Source: Stegostoma tigrinum
Taxonomy: Eukaryota
Direction: 5' to 3'
Assembly (NCBI RefSeq): GCF_030684315.1
Contig: NC_081396.1
Coordinates: forward strand, 5,146,001-5,210,000
Length of the DNA stretch: 64,000 nucleotides
Part shown: positions 4,311 through 54,100 of the stretch, one piece after another
Layout of the letters: the number at the start of each line of letters is the position of its first letter
How positions within the stretch are numbered: the stretch's first letter is position 1
Notes under the pieces: generated by a model
Databases searched by the model: none
What the model was told of the DNA's origin: nothing
Seen by the model: the letters and a program-made list of their open reading frames with translations, nothing else
Program-made: the position numbers and the translations under genes

Positions 4311-5161
4311 TTGATGACTTTTTTTTCTGTTGGAACAGTTTCTCTGTGTATAATGTTTGTCAACCTTTTCATATCTTAGCTGTCATTTACCTCCAACCGA
4401 GTACAGTGGTCTCTTCATTGGATCAATTTAATGGGGCTCTATCGGTTATTCATCCACTAGTAATGTATAATGAGTATATTTTTCAAAGGACTGACACCGA
4501 TCTTTAAAATCAACCCCAAAGAAAGAGCCCCTCAACGTCAATTGCACCTGGATGTTCATCCAACAATGCTGTGTATTCAGTTTTCAGGAACAATCCCGGA
4601 CAATTATTCCCAACTCCCACCAAACAAAAACAAACCTGATCCATTCCAAATGGACAATCTCCACTACGCGTGCTGGTTCACAAATGCTCTCTCAGCTTCA
4701 CAAATGCCATCCATTACACAACCGTGTCTCTCTGCACAATGTGACAAAGGTCACCTGGCCTATTTCTAGTGACAAGTTTATCAAAGCCAAACGCATCAAC
4801 AAGCTCATTCTGATTTGTGACTGTGAAGAAAATAAACAAAAGATCTTCATCTACATTGCCCCTGTATTTCTTTGAGTTGAATACTTCAGACGAAGGAGCA
4901 GGCCGTCAGATTTATTCGAGGGCAGGTTGTCTCTATTTACCCGGTTTTTCGCTGTTCAGTAGAATGTGAGGTTAATGTCAGAAGCACTGGGACACGAATG
5001 ACGCTGAACCAATCATATGCAACGTTTGTCGCTACTTGCTGTGATGGTGTAGATATCAGGCCATTCTCAGCGAATGATCTCGTTTTTTTTTCTCTCTCTC
5101 TTATTCTTACTTTTCAGATTTATGTGATACAAACAAATCCCCACGAACCACATCAACAGTG

Positions 5162-21520: not shown

Positions 21521-22162
21521 TCTGGATGTGAGTTTGCTCGCTGAGCTGGAAGGTTAGTTTTCAGACGTTTCATCACCATTCTAGGTAACATCATCAGTGA
21601 GCCTCCGACGAAGCGCTGGTGTTATGTCCCGCTTTCTATTTATCTGGTTGGGTTTCCTTGGGTTGGTGATGTCATTTCCTGTTCTTTTTCTCAGGGGATG
21701 GTCCATTGGCTCCAAGTCAATGTGTTTGTTGATGGAATTCCGGTTGGAATGCCATGCTTCTAGGAATTCTCGTGCATGTCTCTGCTTGGCTTGTCCTCGG
21801 ATGGATGTGTTGTCACAATCAAAGTTTGATTGGGACAACACATTCATCCTAGGACAAGCCAAGCAGAGACATGCACGAGAATTCCTCGAAGCATGGCATT
21901 CCAACCGGAATTCCATCAACAACCACATTGACTTGGAGCCAATGGACCATCCCCTGAGAAAAAGAACAGGAAATGACATCACCAACCCAAGGAAACCCAA
22001 CCAGATAAATAGAAAGCGGGACATAACACCAGCGCTTCGTCGGAGGCTCACTGATGATGTTACCTAGAATGGTGATGAAACGTCTGAAAACTAACCTTCC
22101 AGCTCAGCGAGCAAACTCACATCCAGAACCTCAACCTGAGCTACAAATCTTCTCAAAACTGG
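21521..22162. mobile_element. Penelope-derived ~600-bp near-perfect palindrome
   Basis: Mirror ORFs on both strands (centre 21824), GIY-YIG C-terminal FDWDNT.ILGQAKQRHAREFLEAWHS, TSD CTGATTACAGATCTG (21510-21524, 22163-22177); absent from unit A. Confidence 0.9.
22048..22087 (+). ncRNA. Minimal type I hammerhead ribozyme motif (mirror copy on - strand ~21561-21600)
   Basis: TCA-CTGATGA-T-GTTACC-TAGAAT-GGTGAT-GAAAC-GTC-TGA: catalytic boxes, stem II and palindromic ACGT stem III. Confidence 0.7.
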
Positions 22163-43968: not shown

Positions 43969-46900
43969 TTATTTCAGAAATCGACGCAATGGATATTTCA
44001 GCCCATTCTTTAACTCGACTCTGAATTTGTTCTGGGTTCCAGCATAAATAAATGGGTTGATGCAGGAACACAAAAATAGAAACATAAATCCATTTTCCTC
44101 GAGGATAAAAGTCGATTCACTGAAGTCTGAACGAGAGAAGTAGGAAACGTTTGCAATTCGTACATAGAGAATCGTTATAAAAAATAAGAAATACAACAAG
44201 AGGAAACTGCCTGATATGGCAAAGAGTAAAACAATAGACTTCCTCCGCTTCTCGATCTCTGGGTCGTTCTGATTCTCTCCGTGGCTCTGGGCCCTGAGCC
44301 TCCTCCTGGCTCTATTGGACACAAGAATATATCGAACAGTCAAAGCATTTAACAGTAAAATCAGAATGAATGGGAGAAGAGGGTTGAAAATGCAACGAAT
44401 CAAGTCATATGCGATCCATGCAGGTGATGTATAAAATATTAACTTTGGTTTGCAGAACCAGGGTACATTGTTAAATGTGTACAGAGGTTCATATATAAAA
44501 TACAAAAATGCACTTTTTATAGTGCACAAAGCAGATACGATTCCTATGACGCATGTTGCTGTCTTCTTGGTGCAGTATTTTATCTTCAGTTTCTGACATG
44601 AAATCATGACAAATCGATCAAAGGTGAAAGTGACAGTTAAACAAGTAGAGCTGTCTACGGCAGTGGAAGTTAAGACAGTACGGAGACTGCACACCGGAGT
44701 GATGGACAGGAAACTGTATGGGAAATAAATCCCAGCAATCCGGTTTAGTATTACAGAGGTGACCAGGATCAAGAGATCTGACGCAGCCATAGACACCAAG
44801 TAATAAATCATACAGCTCGCGAGACCGCATCGTTTTTGAGACAGGATCGCAATCACAGTCAAATTAGCTGTAAAAGAAAGATGGAGGCAGAGACAAAACC
44901 AGGCAAATTACTTTGTCAACTTCCATCAAATTGTCCGTTTTACTAGATTCTCTTTGAAGCACAAAAGTTTGTAATATGTATACATTGCACGAGATGTAAT
45001 AGTAAATGCATTTCAAAGAGATATCCAGATTAAAAGCATATGTATTTATCACATAAGGTATGAAGTATTTTGTTGGGTTTTTTAGCAGACAACAAGAATA
45101 ATTCTAAGTTGCATCTAGTGTATAGAGTACAGAGTAAGGGAACCAGAAAAAAAACACAGCCGCAAAACATCACAGAAAATTTTGGAGTAGTTAAATATTA
45201 AAACGATGATCAACGAGCGAGGACGCTTTCAGAAACACGATTAACAGCTCATTGAGGATTAAATCTGGCTTCTTCTAATGAAATATGGTGCCATTATTCA
45301 CTGTTATGAATGTCAGCAATATATTTGCAAAGATGTGTCCTGAAACATAAGGAGGTGTGTGACCAATATACATTTCTGTCAGTTCTGGAAAGAAACGTGG
45401 GCAGGTGTGGAACGATAGCAACATGCTCTTCAGCTTACAGGAAGGATGTTATTAAAATGGACAGGGTTCAGAAGAGATTTATCAAGATGTCCCTGGAAAT
45501 TGGTGGTCTTAATTACAAGGAGAGGCTGCATAGGCAACGACCATTTTTAATGAATTGACTGATGTTGAGGCATGACCTCAGAGAGATTTAGAAAATAATG
45601 AGGGTTATTAATAAGGTGAATGGCAAATGTCTTTTCATTAGGATGGTCAATTTCAAAACCAGAGGAATGTTTTTTTTTAAAGTGAAAGGAGAAGGATGTA
45701 CAAAAGGATATGATGGACATTTCTTTTACACAATGATTGATTCTTGTGTGGAAAGAACTTCCAGCGGAAGTGGTAGTCATAGATAAAGTTACAACGTTTT
45801 AAAGACGTTTAGACAAGTATATGAATAAAAAGTGATTGTACGGATTTGGGCCAAACGCAGACAGATGGAACTACTTTCGTTTGGGATGATGGTGGGCATG
45901 GACTGGTTGGGCCAAAGAATCTGTTTCTGCATTGTAAGATTCTATGACTCCATTATGATAGTGAAGGCTTTTGATATTCAGTTCAGACGTGCTGGGAATC
46001 AGTGCAGTCAATTGTATCTTCACTGAATTGTTTCCAAATTACATATAACATTCCTTAAAAAAGGAAACCATTGCTAAGGGCAGTCATTCATATGTGGTCT
46101 CACAATGTCCTTCATAAATGTAGCATAACCACCCTGCATTCGAATTCAATTTTTCTCATAAGAAACAATTACTTTCATCCCACTTTACAATTTCCTGAGT
46201 GCATCTGCACGCTAACCAGCTTTTGCACAGTTTTAAGATATTACTTTAAGTCTGTTAATATTTTTGACCTCTTCAGCACACTGTAGAGTGTAGTTCCTCT
46301 TCTTGGAATTTTAATTTCTGCTTAGGATGTATCTGCCCTCCTCTTTCTGATCTCTAACATTCCTTTGAAGGCCTACTGTTACATCGTCATTCAGATATCC
46401 ATTATTACAATTTGCCAGTTCACTGACGAGAAGGACGTTCATGTCCTGATTTTATTTATTTCAGTTTGAAAGTATAGACTTAGGCCTGCTCTTCTCTGCC
46501 TTAAACTGAAGGTAAAATACAATCACATTATGATCCCTATGAAGCCTACATTATGGTGTCAATTATTTAGCCAATCTTGCTGAAAAATACACCTTTGGAG
46601 CCAGCTCCATGACTGAATCTAGAGAGAGCTCAGAATCTGTCCAGAAAGCATTCGATGAACTCCTAATCCAAGCCTTTTTTTCTAGTTTGATTTTTTGAGT
46701 CTCTTCAAGATGTGCCCAAAGTTCTCACCAATGTGTAGACCCTGATGTGGATGGGGACAATGTAAGACATTAGTAGCTCCTTGCAGTAGAAGGAAATTCC
46801 GTCTCAGCGAACATAAAATGAGAAGCATCAACAACATTGAATGTGTAAGGGCAGAGTTGAGCTGAAACACTTGAGACTGAAAATAGAAAACAAAACTGCT

Positions 46901-48403
46901 CTGTGTTTCTGGGCCAAGTGGCAAATAACCATCCTGGAGAACAAGAAATACATTTATTTTGTATCAGCCAACAACTTCTCGACTAATAATGACCTTTCAA
47001 TAAATTCAATGGCTTTTTCAATGATCCCAGACTCTCAAATCTGGGAATTACTCTGGCACTATTTGTTTGACATTATGGCGACAAGGCAATGATTCACCCA
47101 CAGTGACAGTTGTCACAAGACAATACATAATAACGCTTCATTGATTGAAGCATTTTTTCTTAATCATCTATCCTTAACTGTTCTTCAGAAGACAGTGGAC
47201 TGCATTTTTGTATCACGCACAACATTTTATTTAGGTTGAATGACAATGCCGCTAGTACGGGGATCAAAATCTTGAAACGTCACGTAAAGATTTCCTGTGT
47301 TGAACTAAACCTCACGTTTACAAAATGTCAAAAAGGCAGCACAGCACCACTTTTCTAAGGGCAACTAGGAAATAACAATAACTGATGTTCCAGCTATTGG
47401 CGTTCACATTCTTCGAATGAATGATTTAAATGCCTTCTCTTTCATTCAACGAACTAGTTCAAAAATAACTTTGTCACTGTTATCACGCCAGTAGCACCAT
47501 TAGTGCCTGTTTGCACCTTAACAAGAAGGCATTAACAGACCATTAGTAATTATAGGAATAACACACGAAATCTGGAATTTCATGCTACTAACAGTGTGAT
47601 AATTCAGTATGAGAGCCAATAGCACGTTAAGTGTCCAATTGCACTGTGATTCTAATACTTTATGTGCCATAAAAGCGGCAATAACAATAAATGTGCATAC
47701 ACCATAATAATTTCGCACCAATTGACCCTCAAAAGCATTGCTAATAATTACAGGATAACAGCATTCAATCGATGGAAAAAAAAACATTCATCACCCGCAA
47801 TGCAGGTGAATAAAGCAATATAACGATGTTTCTACAGTGAGGTGGTCGGATAAACTGGAAGAAAATTATTAAGATAGTGTAATGGCATCTGTCTCACTGA
47901 GGCACACAAGTCTTAAAGAGTAAATTAGGCATCTTGCAAGCAGAAACTGTGCAGATTAACTGTTATACTGACATTTAAATGAGAGAAATTATAGTATGTA
48001 TTTAGTAAAAAAAAATCTCAGTCAATGACATAACCAGCGAGGTGAAGTGATATTTGACGACTGAAACGTCAGCTTTGGTGCTCCCGAGATGCTGCTGGAC
48101 CTGCTGTGTTCATCCAGCTTCACACTTGGTTATCTTAGAAGAAGTATGATGGTGTGAAATAAATACACAACGTGTGTCAGATAAGGGAAAATATATTGAC
48201 TGATAGCGTGAAACATGTAGCTAGTTAAAGCAGAGAAAGTATATATATTTGGGAGTCGTGTTTCTCGCAAAATGAAGAATTGATGCAGTACACCTATGAA
48301 CCACTCAACTATGACAGAAGGCTTATACTTCACCTGGTACTCCGATTGCTGCAACAACTGGATAGTAAATGGCAAACACCAGACCTCTGGGTATTCCGTG
48401 CAT
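43969..48403 (-). CDS. GPR139/142-like class A GPCR, 322 aa; exon 1 48334-48403, exon 2 43969-44867
   Basis: Exon 1 MHGIPRGLVFAIYYPVVAAIGVP + GT, phase-1 join to ANLTVIAIL; 7TM pattern with SMAASDL, FTFDRF, PFILILLLN, NPFIY. Confidence 0.88.
45430..45950 (+). mobile_element. Degenerate CR1 3' end in the GPCR intron
   Basis: YRKDVIKMDRVQKRFIKM..LNYKERL and CR1-type 3' UTR. Confidence 0.75.
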
Positions 48404-49427
48404 TTCTATCACAGGGTCCGGGTGCATTCTGCACTTCACTGTAAAATGATCACATTTGTAGCTGGGGAGTCTACAGGGAGACAATTAGGCATTTGATCTT
48501 TTCCATAGATAACATAAGGTGAAACAAAACAGATCAGTGCAGTTGCTGCTCGAATGATTTTGCTGATAAAGTAGAATGAATTACATGACATGGGCTAAAA
48601 CTGAGTTCAAACATGAAATAGCCAGAGATTGAAACTGGCCCAGTTGTATTTCTCCAGAGAAACGAAAGACCGTCGCCTAGATTATGAGCCAAAAAGACTC
48701 TTGACCAGTCTGTGAAATATAAAAGTCTTGGAATAAATAATCATCTGCTCCCTCCTCAAAACTGTTTTGTCTGCTTGATCATCAGCTAAGGGCAATGTGA
48801 TTTTGAGACCATGTAACTTGTAACTTAATTGATTTCGCAAAAATTGTCTCCTGGTCCCTCAAAGTAGTTACATTCGGGATGCATGAGTTCATTCTTCATT
48901 TCTACATAACGACATCTTCCCAGGTCACTGCTGCTATCTCCAAAGCAGCAGCCCAATTCTGTTATTGAAAATCTGAAGAAAAATCAGAAAATGCCAAAAC
49001 CAGGAGAAAGCTATTGAACATTCGTTCTGGGTCAAAGTTATGCATTGCTGATTGATCATTCTGGGATTCAGAACCCAGTCTATCATACAAAGCAGCAACA
49101 TGCAAAACAGTTTTCTACCATGAATCATCACACAGAAAAAAAAAATCGACACATAATTGACTGGAAAACCGCAGGTCATAACAAGAGCTCTCCATATGAT
49201 ATATCTTCCCACGGCTCCTCTTTTTTCAAACAATTGTCAATAGATGAAAACCCATAACCTGGTTGACACTACCTATGCCATATGTTGCTTACCCTCCCAT
49301 TCTCAATCTACTTACAGTATACCATTTATCTTGGCGCCCTTTGTGCAGCAAGTTAACTGAGCAAACTCAACCAGCAGTCTCCTTCGGTTCAAGAAATGAG
49401 AAAAAAAATCAAGGTTGTCAATAATAG

Positions 49428-49666
49428 TATTTTTTGTGACACACTCCATCTGGGAGAAGGCAGTCATTGTTCTTTCATGGCGAGAGTGGTTCTTGCTAAA
49501 TTGGAATATCGTGGTACACATGCAGAGAGGCACCAACAATGTTGCTCAAAACTGACGGGGGGGGTGTCTCTAAAGTTCAAGTGGTGGAATTGTCATCTTA
49601 AGCTCAGAGAACAAGTTTGTCACTTGACTCTGGGGCGTTTTATTTGTTGAATAAATAAGCACATGA
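49428..49666 (+). pseudogene. Highly decayed Ig-superfamily V relic with short, VNAR-like Trp-to-Cys spacing
   Basis: In one frame GSC*IGISWY..APTMLL..SS*.....DSGAFY; VT(Q)TPS-like start after AG; CACATGA heptamer-like at 49660. Confidence 0.45.
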
Positions 49667-49777
49667 ATACAAATGATAGAAATCTGATTGACAGATTAGC
49701 CAACAGTGCTAGTATTTAATAATCGCTCTCTTATTTATCATTCATTGACATTCTCAACAGTATACCCTGCAGTAGAG

Positions 49778-49778
49778 C

Positions 49779-49853
<75 letters not shown>
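49778..49853. repeat. Compound (CT)n(CA)n microsatellite
   Basis: Directly visible. Confidence 0.95.
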
Positions 49854-49856
<3 letters not shown>

Positions 49857-50239
49857 CTCTCATTCTCATCTGTGGAATGAACAATCAGGGGTCAATTGCC
49901 ACTTTCCTCGAAGCCTCGAATTTAGGCTTGAGCATTTCTGCAGAACGTCTGCATATTTTGTCACACACTCCTTTCGTACAATTCCCAGAATTCTGTCAGG
50001 ACCCAAAACTCTTGTGGCGTCTATTGCCTTCATCCATTACTTACTTTGATGAGGAGTAAATCAAATCAGTTGAGGACACGTATTTGTGATTATAAGTTCG
50101 TTCCAATAAAGAGCATCGATCAGCTGAACTGTACACGTAGATATATGGAATGTCCCAAACAAATACCTTGTGTTCATATTCACCAAAGAAAAGGTATCCA
50201 GTGCAGGATGATCTCACGAAAGGCAATGCCGAATTTCTA

Positions 50240-51063
50240 AGTCCAGTTGCTGTTAAAAAGGAAGAGACGTTGTGCGACTTAAAAAAGTTTTAGTGTAGAA
50301 AAGTCGCCAGATCCTGATGAAATCTATATCAGAATATTGAGAGATGGAAGAGAACAAATTGTTGGAGTACTGAAAATATCATTGTATACTATTTGGCCAC
50401 AGCTGAGGTTCTAGAGGACCAGAGAATAGCCAATATTGTCCCATTTTTAAAGAAGGGGTAATAGAGATAATCCGAGAAATTATAGACCTGTGAGACTCAA
50501 GGTCATTGTAGGGAAATTATTGGAAAAGATTGTCAGGAACACGATCCACGCGCATTTCTAAGCAAATGGACTTACCAGCAATAGACAGATGGATTTTGTC
50601 TGGGGGAGTTCATGCTTTACAAACTTCCTTAAGATTCTGTGAAGTGATGAAAATGATTGATGAAGGTAAAAAGCAGTTGAATTCGTCTACATGGACTTTC
50701 GTAAAGCCTTTGACAAGGTGATTCATGATAGACTGTTACTAAAGTCGAAATGACATAATATCGGGGTGTGTTGGCAAGATGGGATGCAGAACTGGCTCAC
50801 TCAGAGGAGACAGACTGTATTGATGGAAGCATATTTGTTAGAACAAAGACTGCGACTACTGGTGTTTCACGGGGATTAGTGCTGGAACGTTTGTTGTTCG
50901 TGGTCTGCGTAAATGATTTGGAGTAAAATGTAGCTGATGTAATTAGGATTGGTTGACTTGTTGATAGTGAGAAGGATTGTCAGATGTACAGTAGGATGTA
51001 GATCAGTTGGAGGCATGGGCTGAAAAATTTCAGATGATGTTTAATCAGGGCACATATGAGGTG
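50240..51063 (+). mobile_element. Degenerate CR1 RT fragment
   Basis: KSPDPDEIY..RIANIVP..RDNPRNYRPV..YMDFRKAFDKV. Confidence 0.8.
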
Positions 51064-51385
51064 ATAATAAAGTGTGAAGGCGGATGAACACAGCAGGCCA
51101 AGCAGCATCTCAGGAGCACAAAAGCTGACGTTTCGGGCCTAGACCCTTCATCAGAGAGGGGGATGGGCAGAGGGTTCTGGAATAAATAGGGAGAGAGGGG
51201 GATGCAGGCCGAAGATGGATAGAAAAGAAGATAGGTGGAGAGGAGAGTATAGGTTGGGAGGTAGGGATGGGATAGGTCAGTCCAGGAGGTGGGATGAGGT
51301 TAGTAGGTCAGAAATGGAGGTGCGGCTTGAGGTGGGAGGAAGGGATGGGTGGGAGGAAGAACAGGTTAGGTAGGCAGAGACAGGG
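51064..51385 (-). mobile_element. Penelope-like 3' terminal fragment with hammerhead core
   Basis: Close to 39832-40170; revcomp CTGATGAAGGGTCTAGGCCCGAAACGTC. Confidence 0.8.
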
Positions 51386-51817
51386 GTGTAGGGTTGTGTG
51401 ATTGAGGGACTGTTCTGTTTGTTTTCTCCGCCATTCACTAGGTTCATGACTGATCTGAAGGTACATCAAATCTGCATCAAGTGTGATCTACAAACCATTT
51501 CGTACGTCTTGCTAAATTGTGCACACAACTATTATGCTGAAATGCTCGAGAATGAGCTCCAGGTTTCCAGCAAAGGAACAGGCGATGCATGCCCTCGTGT
51601 GACCAAAATAGGTATAGAGGCATGAAGAGAAATTATGACATCATCAGTCAAAAATAATTGCACCAAATACAGAGGCAACGGAGGTACAGTCAATGGAATG
51701 AAACGTGTTAGGAGATCTACATGTAATAATGAGCCAGCCCCAGTGCCACAAAAGCGGAGGCAAAGCTTTGTTGAACAGATTTCTTCTTTTAAATGCTGCC
51801 CAAACATCCCAAAATAG

Positions 51818-52172
51818 GGGCGTCAATGTAGCTCAGTTGTTAGGATTGCGACTTCTCATGTTCAGGGACCCAGTTTTAATTCCATCCTTGGGAGGCAGCC
51901 TCTGTGGAGTTTGCATATTCTCCCCATACCTGCGATGCTTTCTGCCAGATGTTTCAGATTCGTCCCACAGTACAAAGATGTGCAAGTTGGATGGATCGGC
52001 CATGCTAAATTAAGCATGTTTTGGGGATGGGTAGGTTAGCTGCATTAGCTGTATGAAATGCAGGGCTACAGGCATTGGTTAGGATTTTAGGTTTGGGTGG
52101 GATGATCTTCAGACTGCTTACATGGATCATTTGGCCAAATCGCCTATTTCCACACTGTACGAATTCTACGGA
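51818..52172 (+). mobile_element. HE1/V-SINE-like SINE, near full length
   Basis: tRNA-like head GTAGCTCAGT..GGGACCCAG, core GTGGAGTTTGCATATTCTCCCC..GGCCATGCTAAATT, CR1-like tail. Confidence 0.75.
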
Positions 52173-53505
52173 TCCATTGACTTTCTGGTTGCCACTTAAT
52201 GCTCTCATATTGCATTTGTGAGTTGTGTAGAGTAGGGAGGCTCAAATCAATCATTAATCGATGGAAACAATGTGCAATATGCATCTCTATTCATGAAGGG
52301 TACAGGAAACATTTGCTAAAATGAGCAAAAGAGTTTAGTCTTAAGTTTTTTCCCCTTCTACTGGGAGATTAACAAATCATTGAGTCAACAGGCTGTCTGT
52401 TTGATCAGGTCACACCAGTAAAAGGGCAAATATCAAACTCTTGCCTCATTCCTGTGACGGAAATTAAGTGGAAGCTTCCACTGACATAACAAGGCCCTTC
52501 CCAATATCGTGTACATCAAACTAATTCAGCATGAAACTCACATCAGGTTCGTAGGGTTGCTCATGGGACGTGGGTGGGGTTGGGGGATTTAGGCCCTAAC
52601 GTGGATTTCACCCTTTTCAAAATCATTCCAGCCCCGTCCTCATCCCATGACAAACCCTTCCTCTCATCCAGCCTCTTTGGCTTCATCCAACCAGTCCAGC
52701 TTCTCTCCTACCAATTCACTCCGCCTAACTCACTGACCAATCCCCAGCACTTCCTACCTGCACTCATTTATCACTATCCCATCTCCCTTTTCCAGGACCC
52801 CTACTCTTCTCTCTATTCATTTCTGACCTCCCTTCACCACTCCCATTTCTGAAGAATCGTTCCAACCCCAAAGACAACTTTGATGCTGCTGACCTGCTCT
52901 GTTCCTAAAGCTCCACACTGTGTACTCCATTACTCCATTACCTGCAGTTCTAACTATCTCTGGCACATCCAATGGGGTTACTGTCCGTCAACATATTCTG
53001 AAAATGACTGTTACAGAGAAAAGCGGAACTAACTGTTAAATATTTCAGTCATGAGTGTTTTTCAAAGCAATATATGTGCAGATATTCAATCGAAATCCAA
53101 CGAGTAAACAGAGCAGAATCTTATTTTACTCTCTAAAATGACCCCACGAATTCTTCCAAGGTATATTCAAACTGTAAACATTCCCCTTTCATTTCTTCGT
53201 TATCCTGGAATTATTCAATGTTTCAGATTTTCCGTTTCCCTATTTCCGTTTGAGGGTAATTCTTGAATCATTTCTTTTCATCGTCTATTCTGTCATGTGA
53301 TCGTGATCAGAACACGTGCTTTTACTTAATCCCAAAAAAACAGTTGCCGACCTCTTCAGGCTGTGTTTTCTTTTTTTAAAATTAGAGGGGAGACATATTG
53401 AATAGCTCCATATTGAACAAAATGACTTATTAACAGAGTTGTTCATATGTTGATACAGATGTAATGCTCGTAACAAACGTCTATTTTTAATCTCTTATAT
53501 TCCAG

Positions 53506-53812
53506 TTCTCTAACGTCCAGGAGTCGACCTTTACAACCTTTGCTGCTGGTGACCATGTTATTTGAAGCTAAGAATACAAAGGGTTCTGTCAGTATGCAGT
53601 TTATTGGTACAGTCCATCCCCAAGACAGGCTCTGAAATATATCTACGTCAAAAACACACTTCACAAACAAGAATAAAAGAAGAAACACTGCCCTGTAAAG
53701 ACTTGCAGCTTCCATTGATCCTGCTGTGAAAACCAACCAGTTTAAGATCTGTAAAATACAACTGAGAAACCCCTTTGTTTATTACTGTGTACTGAGTCGG
53801 CATATCAGCACA
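53506..53812 (+). pseudogene. V pseudogene resembling the NAR-TCR supporting V-delta (CDR1 cysteine, no leader found)
   Basis: After TTCCAG acceptor: QESTFTTFAAGDHVI*S*EYKGFCQYAVYWYSPSPRQALKY../..ASIDPAVKTNQFKICKIQLRNPFVYYCVLSR; stops and frameshifts. Confidence 0.75.
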
Positions 53813-54100
53813 CATAGTGAGACAGAGGATAGGGAGAACTCTGCAAAAACTCAAACACGATGGGATGACAGATACAGTGATATAGATCCCGGAGAGATCT
53901 GTGAAAAACTCGAACATGTTGAGGATTCTCTAAACAATGATGTAGAGCCCAGAGAAAACTGCCCAAGAAACTGAATATCTTGAAATCACTGGCACCGTGA
54001 TACAGAGCCCTGAGAGAGCTGTTCAAAAAAAAACTTGAAGATTGTGAGGAAGAAAAGGATACGCATTGATAGACAGCAAAGATTGAGCTGTACAAAACTT
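53813..54100 (+). repeat. Tandem array of five 23-RSS-like units
   Basis: Heptamer-like at 53813, 53873, 53933, 53993, 54062, each followed 23 nt later by an A-rich nonamer-like motif. Confidence 0.8.

What the first reader, a model, noticed from the sequence alone, without database searches (positions are those of the whole stretch)
53506..53812. Leaderless V with CDR1 cysteine: possible stranded NAR-TCR supporting V-delta
Seen: a V exon with an extra Cys in CDR1 (GGG TTC TGT CAG TAT, TGT at 53587) six codons before the conserved Trp. No hydrophobic leader exon is evident in the preceding ~500 bp. It lies about 26 kb from the last intact V, between two GPCR genes, and the ORF track shows only its 3' end. 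Established: shark NAR-TCR uses a leaderless supporting V-delta with a non-canonical CDR1 Cys, downstream of an IgNAR-like V-D-J. Inference: with the relics at 49.4 kb and 53.0 kb, this may be a decayed NAR-TCR cassette, or a derivative recruited into another multi-Ig gene.
Basis: partly seen in the sequence, partly recalled or inferred. Interest (0 to 1): 0.72.

Follow-up and report, generated by a model that had tools for sequence, protein, structure and literature searches.

The report
Orphaned dead shark NAR-TCR support V
This is a broken copy of the 'support' half of a known shark two-domain T-cell receptor whose partner half is missing from the DNA in front of it, so it is most likely a dead relic; the one oddity, shared with its intact relatives, is a row of repeated gene-cutting signals behind it whose use is untested.

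Summary
The family call is right and the cassette reading is wrong. 53499-53812 is a pseudogene of the NAR-TCR supporting V-delta family. It has the CDR1 Cys and no leader, and it groups with 13 paralogs. Eight paralogs sit 3-8 kb behind a NAR V-D-J. This copy has three stops in its 5' frame (one replacing Cys1), frameshifts, a lost acceptor and a CAT heptamer. No NAR V or J remnant lies upstream: about 3 kb was deleted, and the 'relics' at 49.4 and 53.0 kb are flank and intron DNA. An 86% twin 76 kb away shares the damage. Such a row follows 13 of 14 family members and 0 of 23 other V segments. Its heptamers are more decayed than its spacers, and 7 of 8 usable-looking extras lie behind a stop, so function is unsupported. 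One transcript contig ends exactly at a third signal, a weak hint. The scan noted this row before on other DNA.

The parts
53499..53812 (+). Pseudogene exon of the NAR-TCR supporting V-delta family (leaderless; stops at 53563, 53569 [Cys1 site] and 53674; frameshifts; acceptor AG reads AT at 53497-98)
53587..53589 (+). CDR1 cysteine codon (TGT), the family hallmark
   Evidence: present in 50 of 52 supporting-V halves among the proteins held
53813..53851 (+). First 23-RSS; heptamer CATAGTG, so the conserved CAC is lost
   Evidence: CAC rule from the PMC12711392 abstract
53873..54100 (+). Four further degenerate 23-RSS-like units at +60, +120, +180 and +249, each behind a linker of about 21-30 nt (family-wide RSS row)
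53010..53498 (+).
52551..53009 (.). Deletion junction: about 460 bp, largely a dispersed-repeat fragment, in place of about 3.1 kb that holds leader, NAR V, D and J in the paralog
52172..52550 (+). Flank homologous to DNA ending about 230 bp upstream of the NAR V leader ATG in the C55:2.040 Mb cassette
43969..44907 (-). 7TM-like ORF (312 aa) on the same duplicated block; its homolog also lies upstream of the 2.040 Mb cassette (83% over 959 bp). Context, not part of the receptor

Best explanation
This is a broken, leaderless V exon of the shark NAR-TCR supporting V-delta family with no NAR V-D-J left in front of it, most likely a dead relic that can neither rearrange well nor be expressed. In a working cassette (shown in paralogs: leader-NAR V-RSS, D, RSS-J-donor, intron, supporting V-RSS) the NAR V-D-J is rearranged and spliced onto the supporting V. 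That V is itself rearranged to D-delta/J-delta, and its CDR1 Cys is thought to pair with a Cys of the NAR V (recalled from the literature, not tested). Inferred history: an ancestral GPCR-plus-cassette block lost about 3.1 kb (leader, NAR V, D, J) at a site now holding a repeat fragment, the orphan V decayed, and the block was then duplicated 76 kb downstream. The row of extra 23-RSS copies came with the family. It is most likely an old tandem duplication of RSS plus linker that mostly drifts, with only the first copy under clear selection.
For: Tree: 14 family rows form one side of a branch (92/98; 90% of bootstrap trees) against 13 conventional V and 10 NAR-type V rows; window plus twin 99/100. 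Eight paralogs have NAR V and J 3-8 kb upstream, and the one NAR V tested hits only shark VNAR structures, 5 of 5 at E<=1e-14. Named shark, ray and sawfish protein models join NAR V-J to this V type. Contig 3 of run X1 goes from the J end (L060:1718) directly to the V start (4492). Lesions. Absence of NAR V/J upstream. Breakpoints. The twin is colinear from 41.5 to 58.6 kb at 80-90% and shares the TGA, the Cys1 loss, the 1-nt insertion and the CAT heptamer. Row: in 34 extra units of the 8 complete cassettes heptamer identity is 0.65 against spacer 0.79, and 10 of 34 start with CAC; the first RSS shows 0.96 against 0.74. Usable-looking extras occur in 7 of 8 cassettes and 3 of 5 solo or broken copies, p=0.51.
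Against: No sequence labelled NAR-TCR by its source was retrieved, so membership rests on anatomy and on the description in PMC1845163, not on clustering with nurse-shark cDNAs. The family branch has ultrafast bootstrap 92, below the starred threshold. Against pure drift of the row: 7 of 8 complete cassettes keep at least one CAC-starting extra signal, usually the third unit; read-through tails of whale shark, epaulette shark and sawshark models show a second unit; and one transcript contig stops one base before a third heptamer. The heptamer-versus-spacer figures come from ungapped matching, which penalises unit edges near indels, and four cassettes are recent sisters.
Confidence: 0.88

Rival explanations
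1. The exon is dead, but the RSS row of the family is functional. Extra 23-RSS copies would dock RAG or be cut, raising the chance that the supporting V is joined, or would allow a distal signal to be used first and a proximal one later to a downstream J-delta. That would give a second try for a chain that needs two in-frame joints.
For: The row follows 13 of 14 family members and 0 of 23 other V segments; 8 of 750 shuffles give a unit. It is present beyond this species (7 protein tails from 3 other genera run into a second unit). 7 of 8 cassettes hold a CAC-starting extra. X1 contig 3 fits to L060:4925, the third heptamer starts at 4926, and 43 letters run on unlike the stretch. Eleven J-like segments follow the single D.
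Against: Extra heptamers are more decayed than their spacers. There is no enrichment in complete cassettes (p=0.51). The 43 loose letters were not seen and may be a diverged repeat unit of that species. That contig's NAR D-J part is unrearranged. It is one contig of one run.
Confidence: 0.2
2. The extra signals act as a germline switch for CDR3 length: joining at the second or third RSS would add about 20 or 40 residues to the supporting V.
For: The V frame stays open past the second unit in 6 of 8 cassettes (stop at +94 to +100), and the 5.784 Mb cassette has a perfect RSS at +61 in open frame.
Against: 7 of 8 usable-looking extra signals in complete cassettes lie behind the first in-frame stop. 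The named full-length models with V, J and C (P0014, P0019, P0038) have short CDR3s, although these are gene models and not shown to be cDNAs.
Confidence: 0.06
3. One reading: a cassette decayed in place, with NAR V and J relics at 49.4 and 53.0 kb, or an exon recruited into another multi-Ig gene.
For: The exon is of the cassette family and sits at the syntenic place behind the same GPCR-like gene as the 2.040 Mb cassette.
Against: Profiles find no NAR V or J in window 44001-53500 but do find them in the decayed 1.706 Mb copy. 49222-49361 aligns to DNA about 2 kb upstream of the paralog's leader, and 53010 onward aligns to intron. 49250-49720 matches only itself and the twin in the genome, 2 of 2 candidates. 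The frame and acceptor are broken.
Confidence: 0.04

Closest known systems
NAR-TCR supporting TCR-delta V of cartilaginous fishes (Criscitiello et al. 2006, not held; as described in PMC1845163 passages and Fig. 3 legend)
   Same: Leaderless V exon, CDR1 Cys, 23-RSS; paralogs lie behind NAR V-D-J and are spliced to it.
   Different: This copy is a pseudogene with no NAR V-D-J upstream. The tandem RSS row was not mentioned in the passages read.
Elasmobranch antigen receptor complex, TCR alpha/delta linked to IgH isotypes and NAR-TCR (PMC12227049, passages)
   Same: TCR V segments, NAR-TCR cassettes and IgNAR-like V exons lie interleaved on one contig.
   Different: The passages read give no cassette-level census, orphan supporting V or RSS detail; its table S1 and supplements were not opened.
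TCR-mu supporting V of marsupials and monotremes (PMC3457774, passages)
   Same: A second, supporting V domain under an antibody-like N-terminal V.
   Different: Convergent according to that paper; VH-related, germline-joined or joined V to J, and not homologous to this exon.

Membership tests
NAR-TCR supporting V-delta gene family (by descent) | No leader exon; preceded by the intron from NAR-J | tested here: met
   53010-53498 is colinear with the J-to-V intron of the 2.040 Mb cassette
NAR-TCR supporting V-delta gene family (by descent) | Conserved extra Cys in CDR1 | tested here: met
   TGT at 53587-89; 50 of 52 homologous halves carry it; feature from PMC1845163
NAR-TCR supporting V-delta gene family (by descent) | Clusters with the V exons that lie behind NAR V-D-J, apart from conventional TCR V | tested here: met
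   DNA tree of 37 rows, support 92/98
NAR-TCR supporting V-delta gene family (by descent) | Clusters with published nurse-shark supporting V-delta cDNAs | not testable with these tools
   No sequence labelled NAR-TCR was returned or 56
Working NAR-TCR cassette | Leader-NAR V-D-J directly upstream | tested here: not met
   No remnant in window 44001-53500; about 3.1 kb missing against the paralog
Working NAR-TCR cassette | Open V frame with both canonical Cys, intact acceptor and CAC heptamer | tested here: not met
   Stops, Cys1 site TAA, acceptor AT, heptamer CAT
Working NAR-TCR cassette | Same locus as D-delta, J-delta and C-delta | tested here: met
   One C hit at C55:947141-947413 (-), with a D and 11 J-like segments at 950.9-961.1 kb; the delta label is inferred from the D and from 45% identity to the C of P0014
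Conventional leader-bearing TRAV/TRDV | Own leader exon, no CDR1 Cys, single RSS | tested here: not met
   Separate branch; 0 of 13 conventional V have extra RSS copies

The most novel reading that the evidence does not exclude
The supporting V-delta genes of sharks carry an old, family-specific ladder of 23-RSS copies that RAG really uses, either as extra docking sites that favour these distant, inverted segments or as nested signals that let the supporting V rearrange more than once. This would offset the low odds of getting two in-frame joints in one chain. This pseudogene would be a fossil that kept the ladder after losing its NAR half.
Probability: 0.2. Interest if true: 0.7.

Novelty: new member of a known kind. 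Interest (0 to 1): 0.3.

Why it matters
The exon itself adds little: it is one of at least four solo supporting V copies in a locus with eight complete NAR-TCR cassettes, and it shows birth and death of these cassettes, here by loss of the NAR half. The RSS row matters more. One signal per V is the rule, and this family breaks it in 13 of 14 copies here and in other sharks. If the extra signals are cut, it would be a built-in second chance or a usage booster for a doubly rearranging receptor, and it is directly testable in repertoire reads. My conservation tests did not support that.

Tried and rejected
(1) Relics at 49.4 and 53.0 kb as NAR V or J: blastn, tblastn with 31 NAR halves, HMM and nhmmer profiles, a supporting-V profile and a genome search were all negative. 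(2) NAR half displaced downstream: tblastn with 9 two-domain proteins over C55:5.210-5.2555 Mb found only one conventional V piece. (3) Linkers of the row as D segments: the D-delta found does not resemble them by eye, and no strong 12-RSS was reported inside the rows. (4) CDR3-length switch: 7 of 8 usable-looking extras lie behind a stop. (5) Selection on extra heptamers: not seen. (6) Named NAR-TCR cDNAs: not returned (one search had no candidates). (7) The PDB search with a supporting V gave only generic antibody V hits among the 60 shown of 281. (8) Sequencing runs: no RNA holder was on record among the 5 listed; 3 of the 5 were laid, on a paralog and not on the window copy, so the expression of this copy was not examined, and the loose end of X1 contig 3 stays unseen. 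(9) Papers not held: PMC1458790, PMC7909615, PMC3222143, and a DOI and a PubMed id recalled for Deiss et al. 2019. The 'TAILV' search returned noise. (10) Rows left out: the 1.721 Mb copy was but not in the tree or the control count; the 1.706 and 1.721 Mb copies were not. One search stopped after 9 of 13 rows, and one search repeated the signal count for all 13.

Full report
Observation. The V exon is real. TGT at 53587-89 lies six codons before TGG at 53605-07. Alignment to paralogs puts the true exon start at 53499, where the family acceptor (..CAG|ATTCC) has become ..TAT|ATTCC. The 5' frame holds TGA at 53563, TAA at the Cys1 codon (53569) and TAA at 53674, and there are several 1-2 nt indels. 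The first RSS (53813-51) begins CAT; the abstract of PMC12711392 states that CAC is strictly conserved (abstract and outline only). A profile of 52 supporting-V halves finds no V between 26.8 and 53.5 kb; its only signal there, at 49485-49568, has iE 2.4.

Family. A DNA search of the own genome gave 8 of 8 scored matches, all on contig C55. A protein search added more (150 of 287 candidates scored, so counts are lower bounds). Eight paralogs (C55 2.040, 5.397, 5.539, 5.606, 5.644, 5.681, 5.740, 5.784 Mb) have a NAR V with RSS and a J with a 23-RSS, a DGSG-type motif and a splice donor 3-8 kb upstream. A D with 12-RSS was read in three of them. The NAR V of the 5.397 Mb cassette matches only shark VNAR structures, 5 of 5 hits at E<=1e-14. 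Source-named models from many sharks, a skate and a sawfish join NAR V-J to this V type, and some continue into J and C. Two models named Stegostoma tigrinum are identical to paralogs over the supporting-V exon. In run X1, a relative whose RNA status is a guess, one contig joins the leader to NAR V and another joins the J end (L060:1718) to the supporting-V start (4492). PMC1845163 (passages and figure legend) gives the defining traits: no leader and a CDR1 Cys. The Cys is in 50 of 52 halves held. In a tree of 37 V exons, the 14 family rows, including the window copy, form one side of a branch (92/98), apart from 13 conventional and 10 NAR-type rows. No sequence labelled NAR-TCR was retrieved, so clustering with nurse-shark cDNAs is untested.

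What happened here. blastn with four cassettes, tblastn with 31 NAR halves and protein and DNA profiles find no NAR V, D or J upstream of the window copy. The same profiles find the decayed cassette at 1.706 Mb (E 4.5e-98 and 1.1e-64). The window is colinear with the 2.040 Mb cassette from the shared 7TM-like gene (83% over 959 bp) to 52550, which maps about 230 bp before the paralog's leader ATG. It resumes at 53010, inside the J-to-V intron. About 3.1 kb is therefore missing. In its place stand about 460 bp, mostly a dispersed repeat (52 hits in 31 of 84 sequences; class not determined). Whether the repeat caused the loss is inference. The twin at 5.275 Mb is colinear over 41.5-58.6 kb at 80-90%, also lacks NAR V and J, and shares the TGA, the Cys1 loss, the 1-nt insertion and the CAT heptamer but keeps its acceptor. 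So the loss and the main lesions came before that duplication (inference).

The RSS row. Four more 23-RSS-like units follow at 53873, 53933, 53993 and 54062. I saw them, before consulting earlier notes. Copies of a V's own first RSS (at least 23 of 39 identical, within 400 bp) follow 13 of 14 family members, 0 of 13 conventional V and 0 of 10 NAR-type V. With a family consensus all 15 members tested have at least one unit, against 8 of 750 shuffles. Of 26 protein tails of 25 residues or more, 11 hit the row. One is from this species and three cover only a first signal. Seven, from Rhincodon, Hemiscyllium and Pristiophorus models, run into a second unit. The row is thus old and family-specific. 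Tests of function were mostly negative. In 34 extra units of complete cassettes the heptamer is 0.65 and the spacer 0.79 identical to consensus, and 10 of 34 start with CAC; the first RSS shows 0.96 and 0.74 (ungapped matching, sister cassettes not independent). CAC-starting extras with at most 2 mismatches in each motif occur in 7 of 8 cassettes and 3 of 5 solo or broken copies (p=0.51). Seven of the 8 such extras in cassettes lie behind the first in-frame stop, which argues against a CDR3-length switch. The window copy has none. One result points the other way: X1 contig 3 fits up to L060:4925, the third heptamer begins at 4926, and 43 letters run on unlike the stretch. That is where a RAG coding end would fall, but the letters were not seen and a diverged repeat unit would look the same.

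Mechanism and odds. Shown: family anatomy, lesions, absence of the NAR half, the row and its specificity. Inferred: order of events, silence of this copy, drift of the row. Recalled and untested: the inter-domain disulfide. I put 0.88 on a dead orphan supporting V. For the row, taken separately, I put about 0.2 on use by RAG as docking or nested signals and 0.06 on a CDR3 switch. The single C hit, its D and 11 J-like segments are on the minus strand at 947-961 kb, so these plus-strand cassettes would join by inversion if the assembly is right.

Literature and earlier notes. Read as passages: PMC1845163, PMC12227049, PMC5931798, PMC3457774 and PMC6795676; abstract only: PMC12711392. None of the passages mentions stacked signals behind the supporting V. 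Searches listed no paper on it. The primary papers (Criscitiello 2006 and 2010, Deiss 2019, Ott 2021) are not held, and no supplements were opened, so 'undescribed' is not established. Earlier notes of this scan already report the row in this genome (e1-9816335) and in others (e1-9586413, e1-8592395, e1-9206692, e1-9524918). They are leads, not support. The idea that the row helps joining rather than lengthening the loop also appears in e1-8592395.

Verdict. A pseudogene of a known family, orphaned by deletion of its NAR half; not a working or decayed-in-place cassette and not a recruited exon. Interest 0.3, nearly all of it from the family-wide RSS row.

Noticed in passing
G000:C55:947141-961074 (L059, L079, L080): The only C hit, with one D and 11 J-like segments, is on the minus strand. 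All eight complete NAR-TCR cassettes (2.04-5.78 Mb), the window copy and the nearest conventional V segments (971-1100 kb) are on plus. If the assembly is right these V segments join by inversion.
   Followed up: partly
L045 (C55:5.554 Mb), L047 (C55:5.702 Mb), L002 (C55:5.275 Mb): Three more solo supporting V copies with no NAR V or J within 9.5-11.9 kb upstream. The 5.702 Mb copy has an open frame and CACAGTG heptamers at +0, +60 and +180.
   Followed up: partly
L008 (C55:5.784 Mb), L029 (5.740 Mb), L066 (5.637 Mb): Among the complete cassettes, the 5.784 Mb supporting V has Ala in place of Cys1 but keeps the CDR1 Cys and has three near-perfect signals. The 5.740 Mb one has Asp in place of the CDR1 Cys. 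The NAR V at 5.637 Mb carries a stop.
   Followed up: no
RSS rows of the 5.397, 5.539, 5.606, 5.644 and 5.681 Mb cassettes: Units tend to alternate between better (0, about +120, about +240) and worse (+55 to +61, about +180) signals, which suggests duplication of a two-unit block.
   Followed up: partly
L060:1170-1718 and 4492-4925 (run X1 contig 3): A contig of a related species starts upstream of the unrearranged NAR D, runs through J and is joined to the supporting V: a likely sterile germline transcript (RNA status is the tool's guess).
   Followed up: partly
window 3267-26870: Seven conventional TCR V segments: four on minus as two duplicated pairs (7.3/22.8 kb and 12.6/26.5 kb, the latter pair with 24-nt RSS spacers) and three broken ones on plus (3.3, 6.0 and 21.0 kb).
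   Followed up: no
window 21581-22067: A near-perfect inverted repeat: both strands give almost the same 160-aa frame.
   Followed up: no
G000:C55:2930129 (L050) and 8054857 (L054): IgNAR-like V exons without the NAR-TCR Cys in strand A-B lie on the same contig.
   Followed up: no
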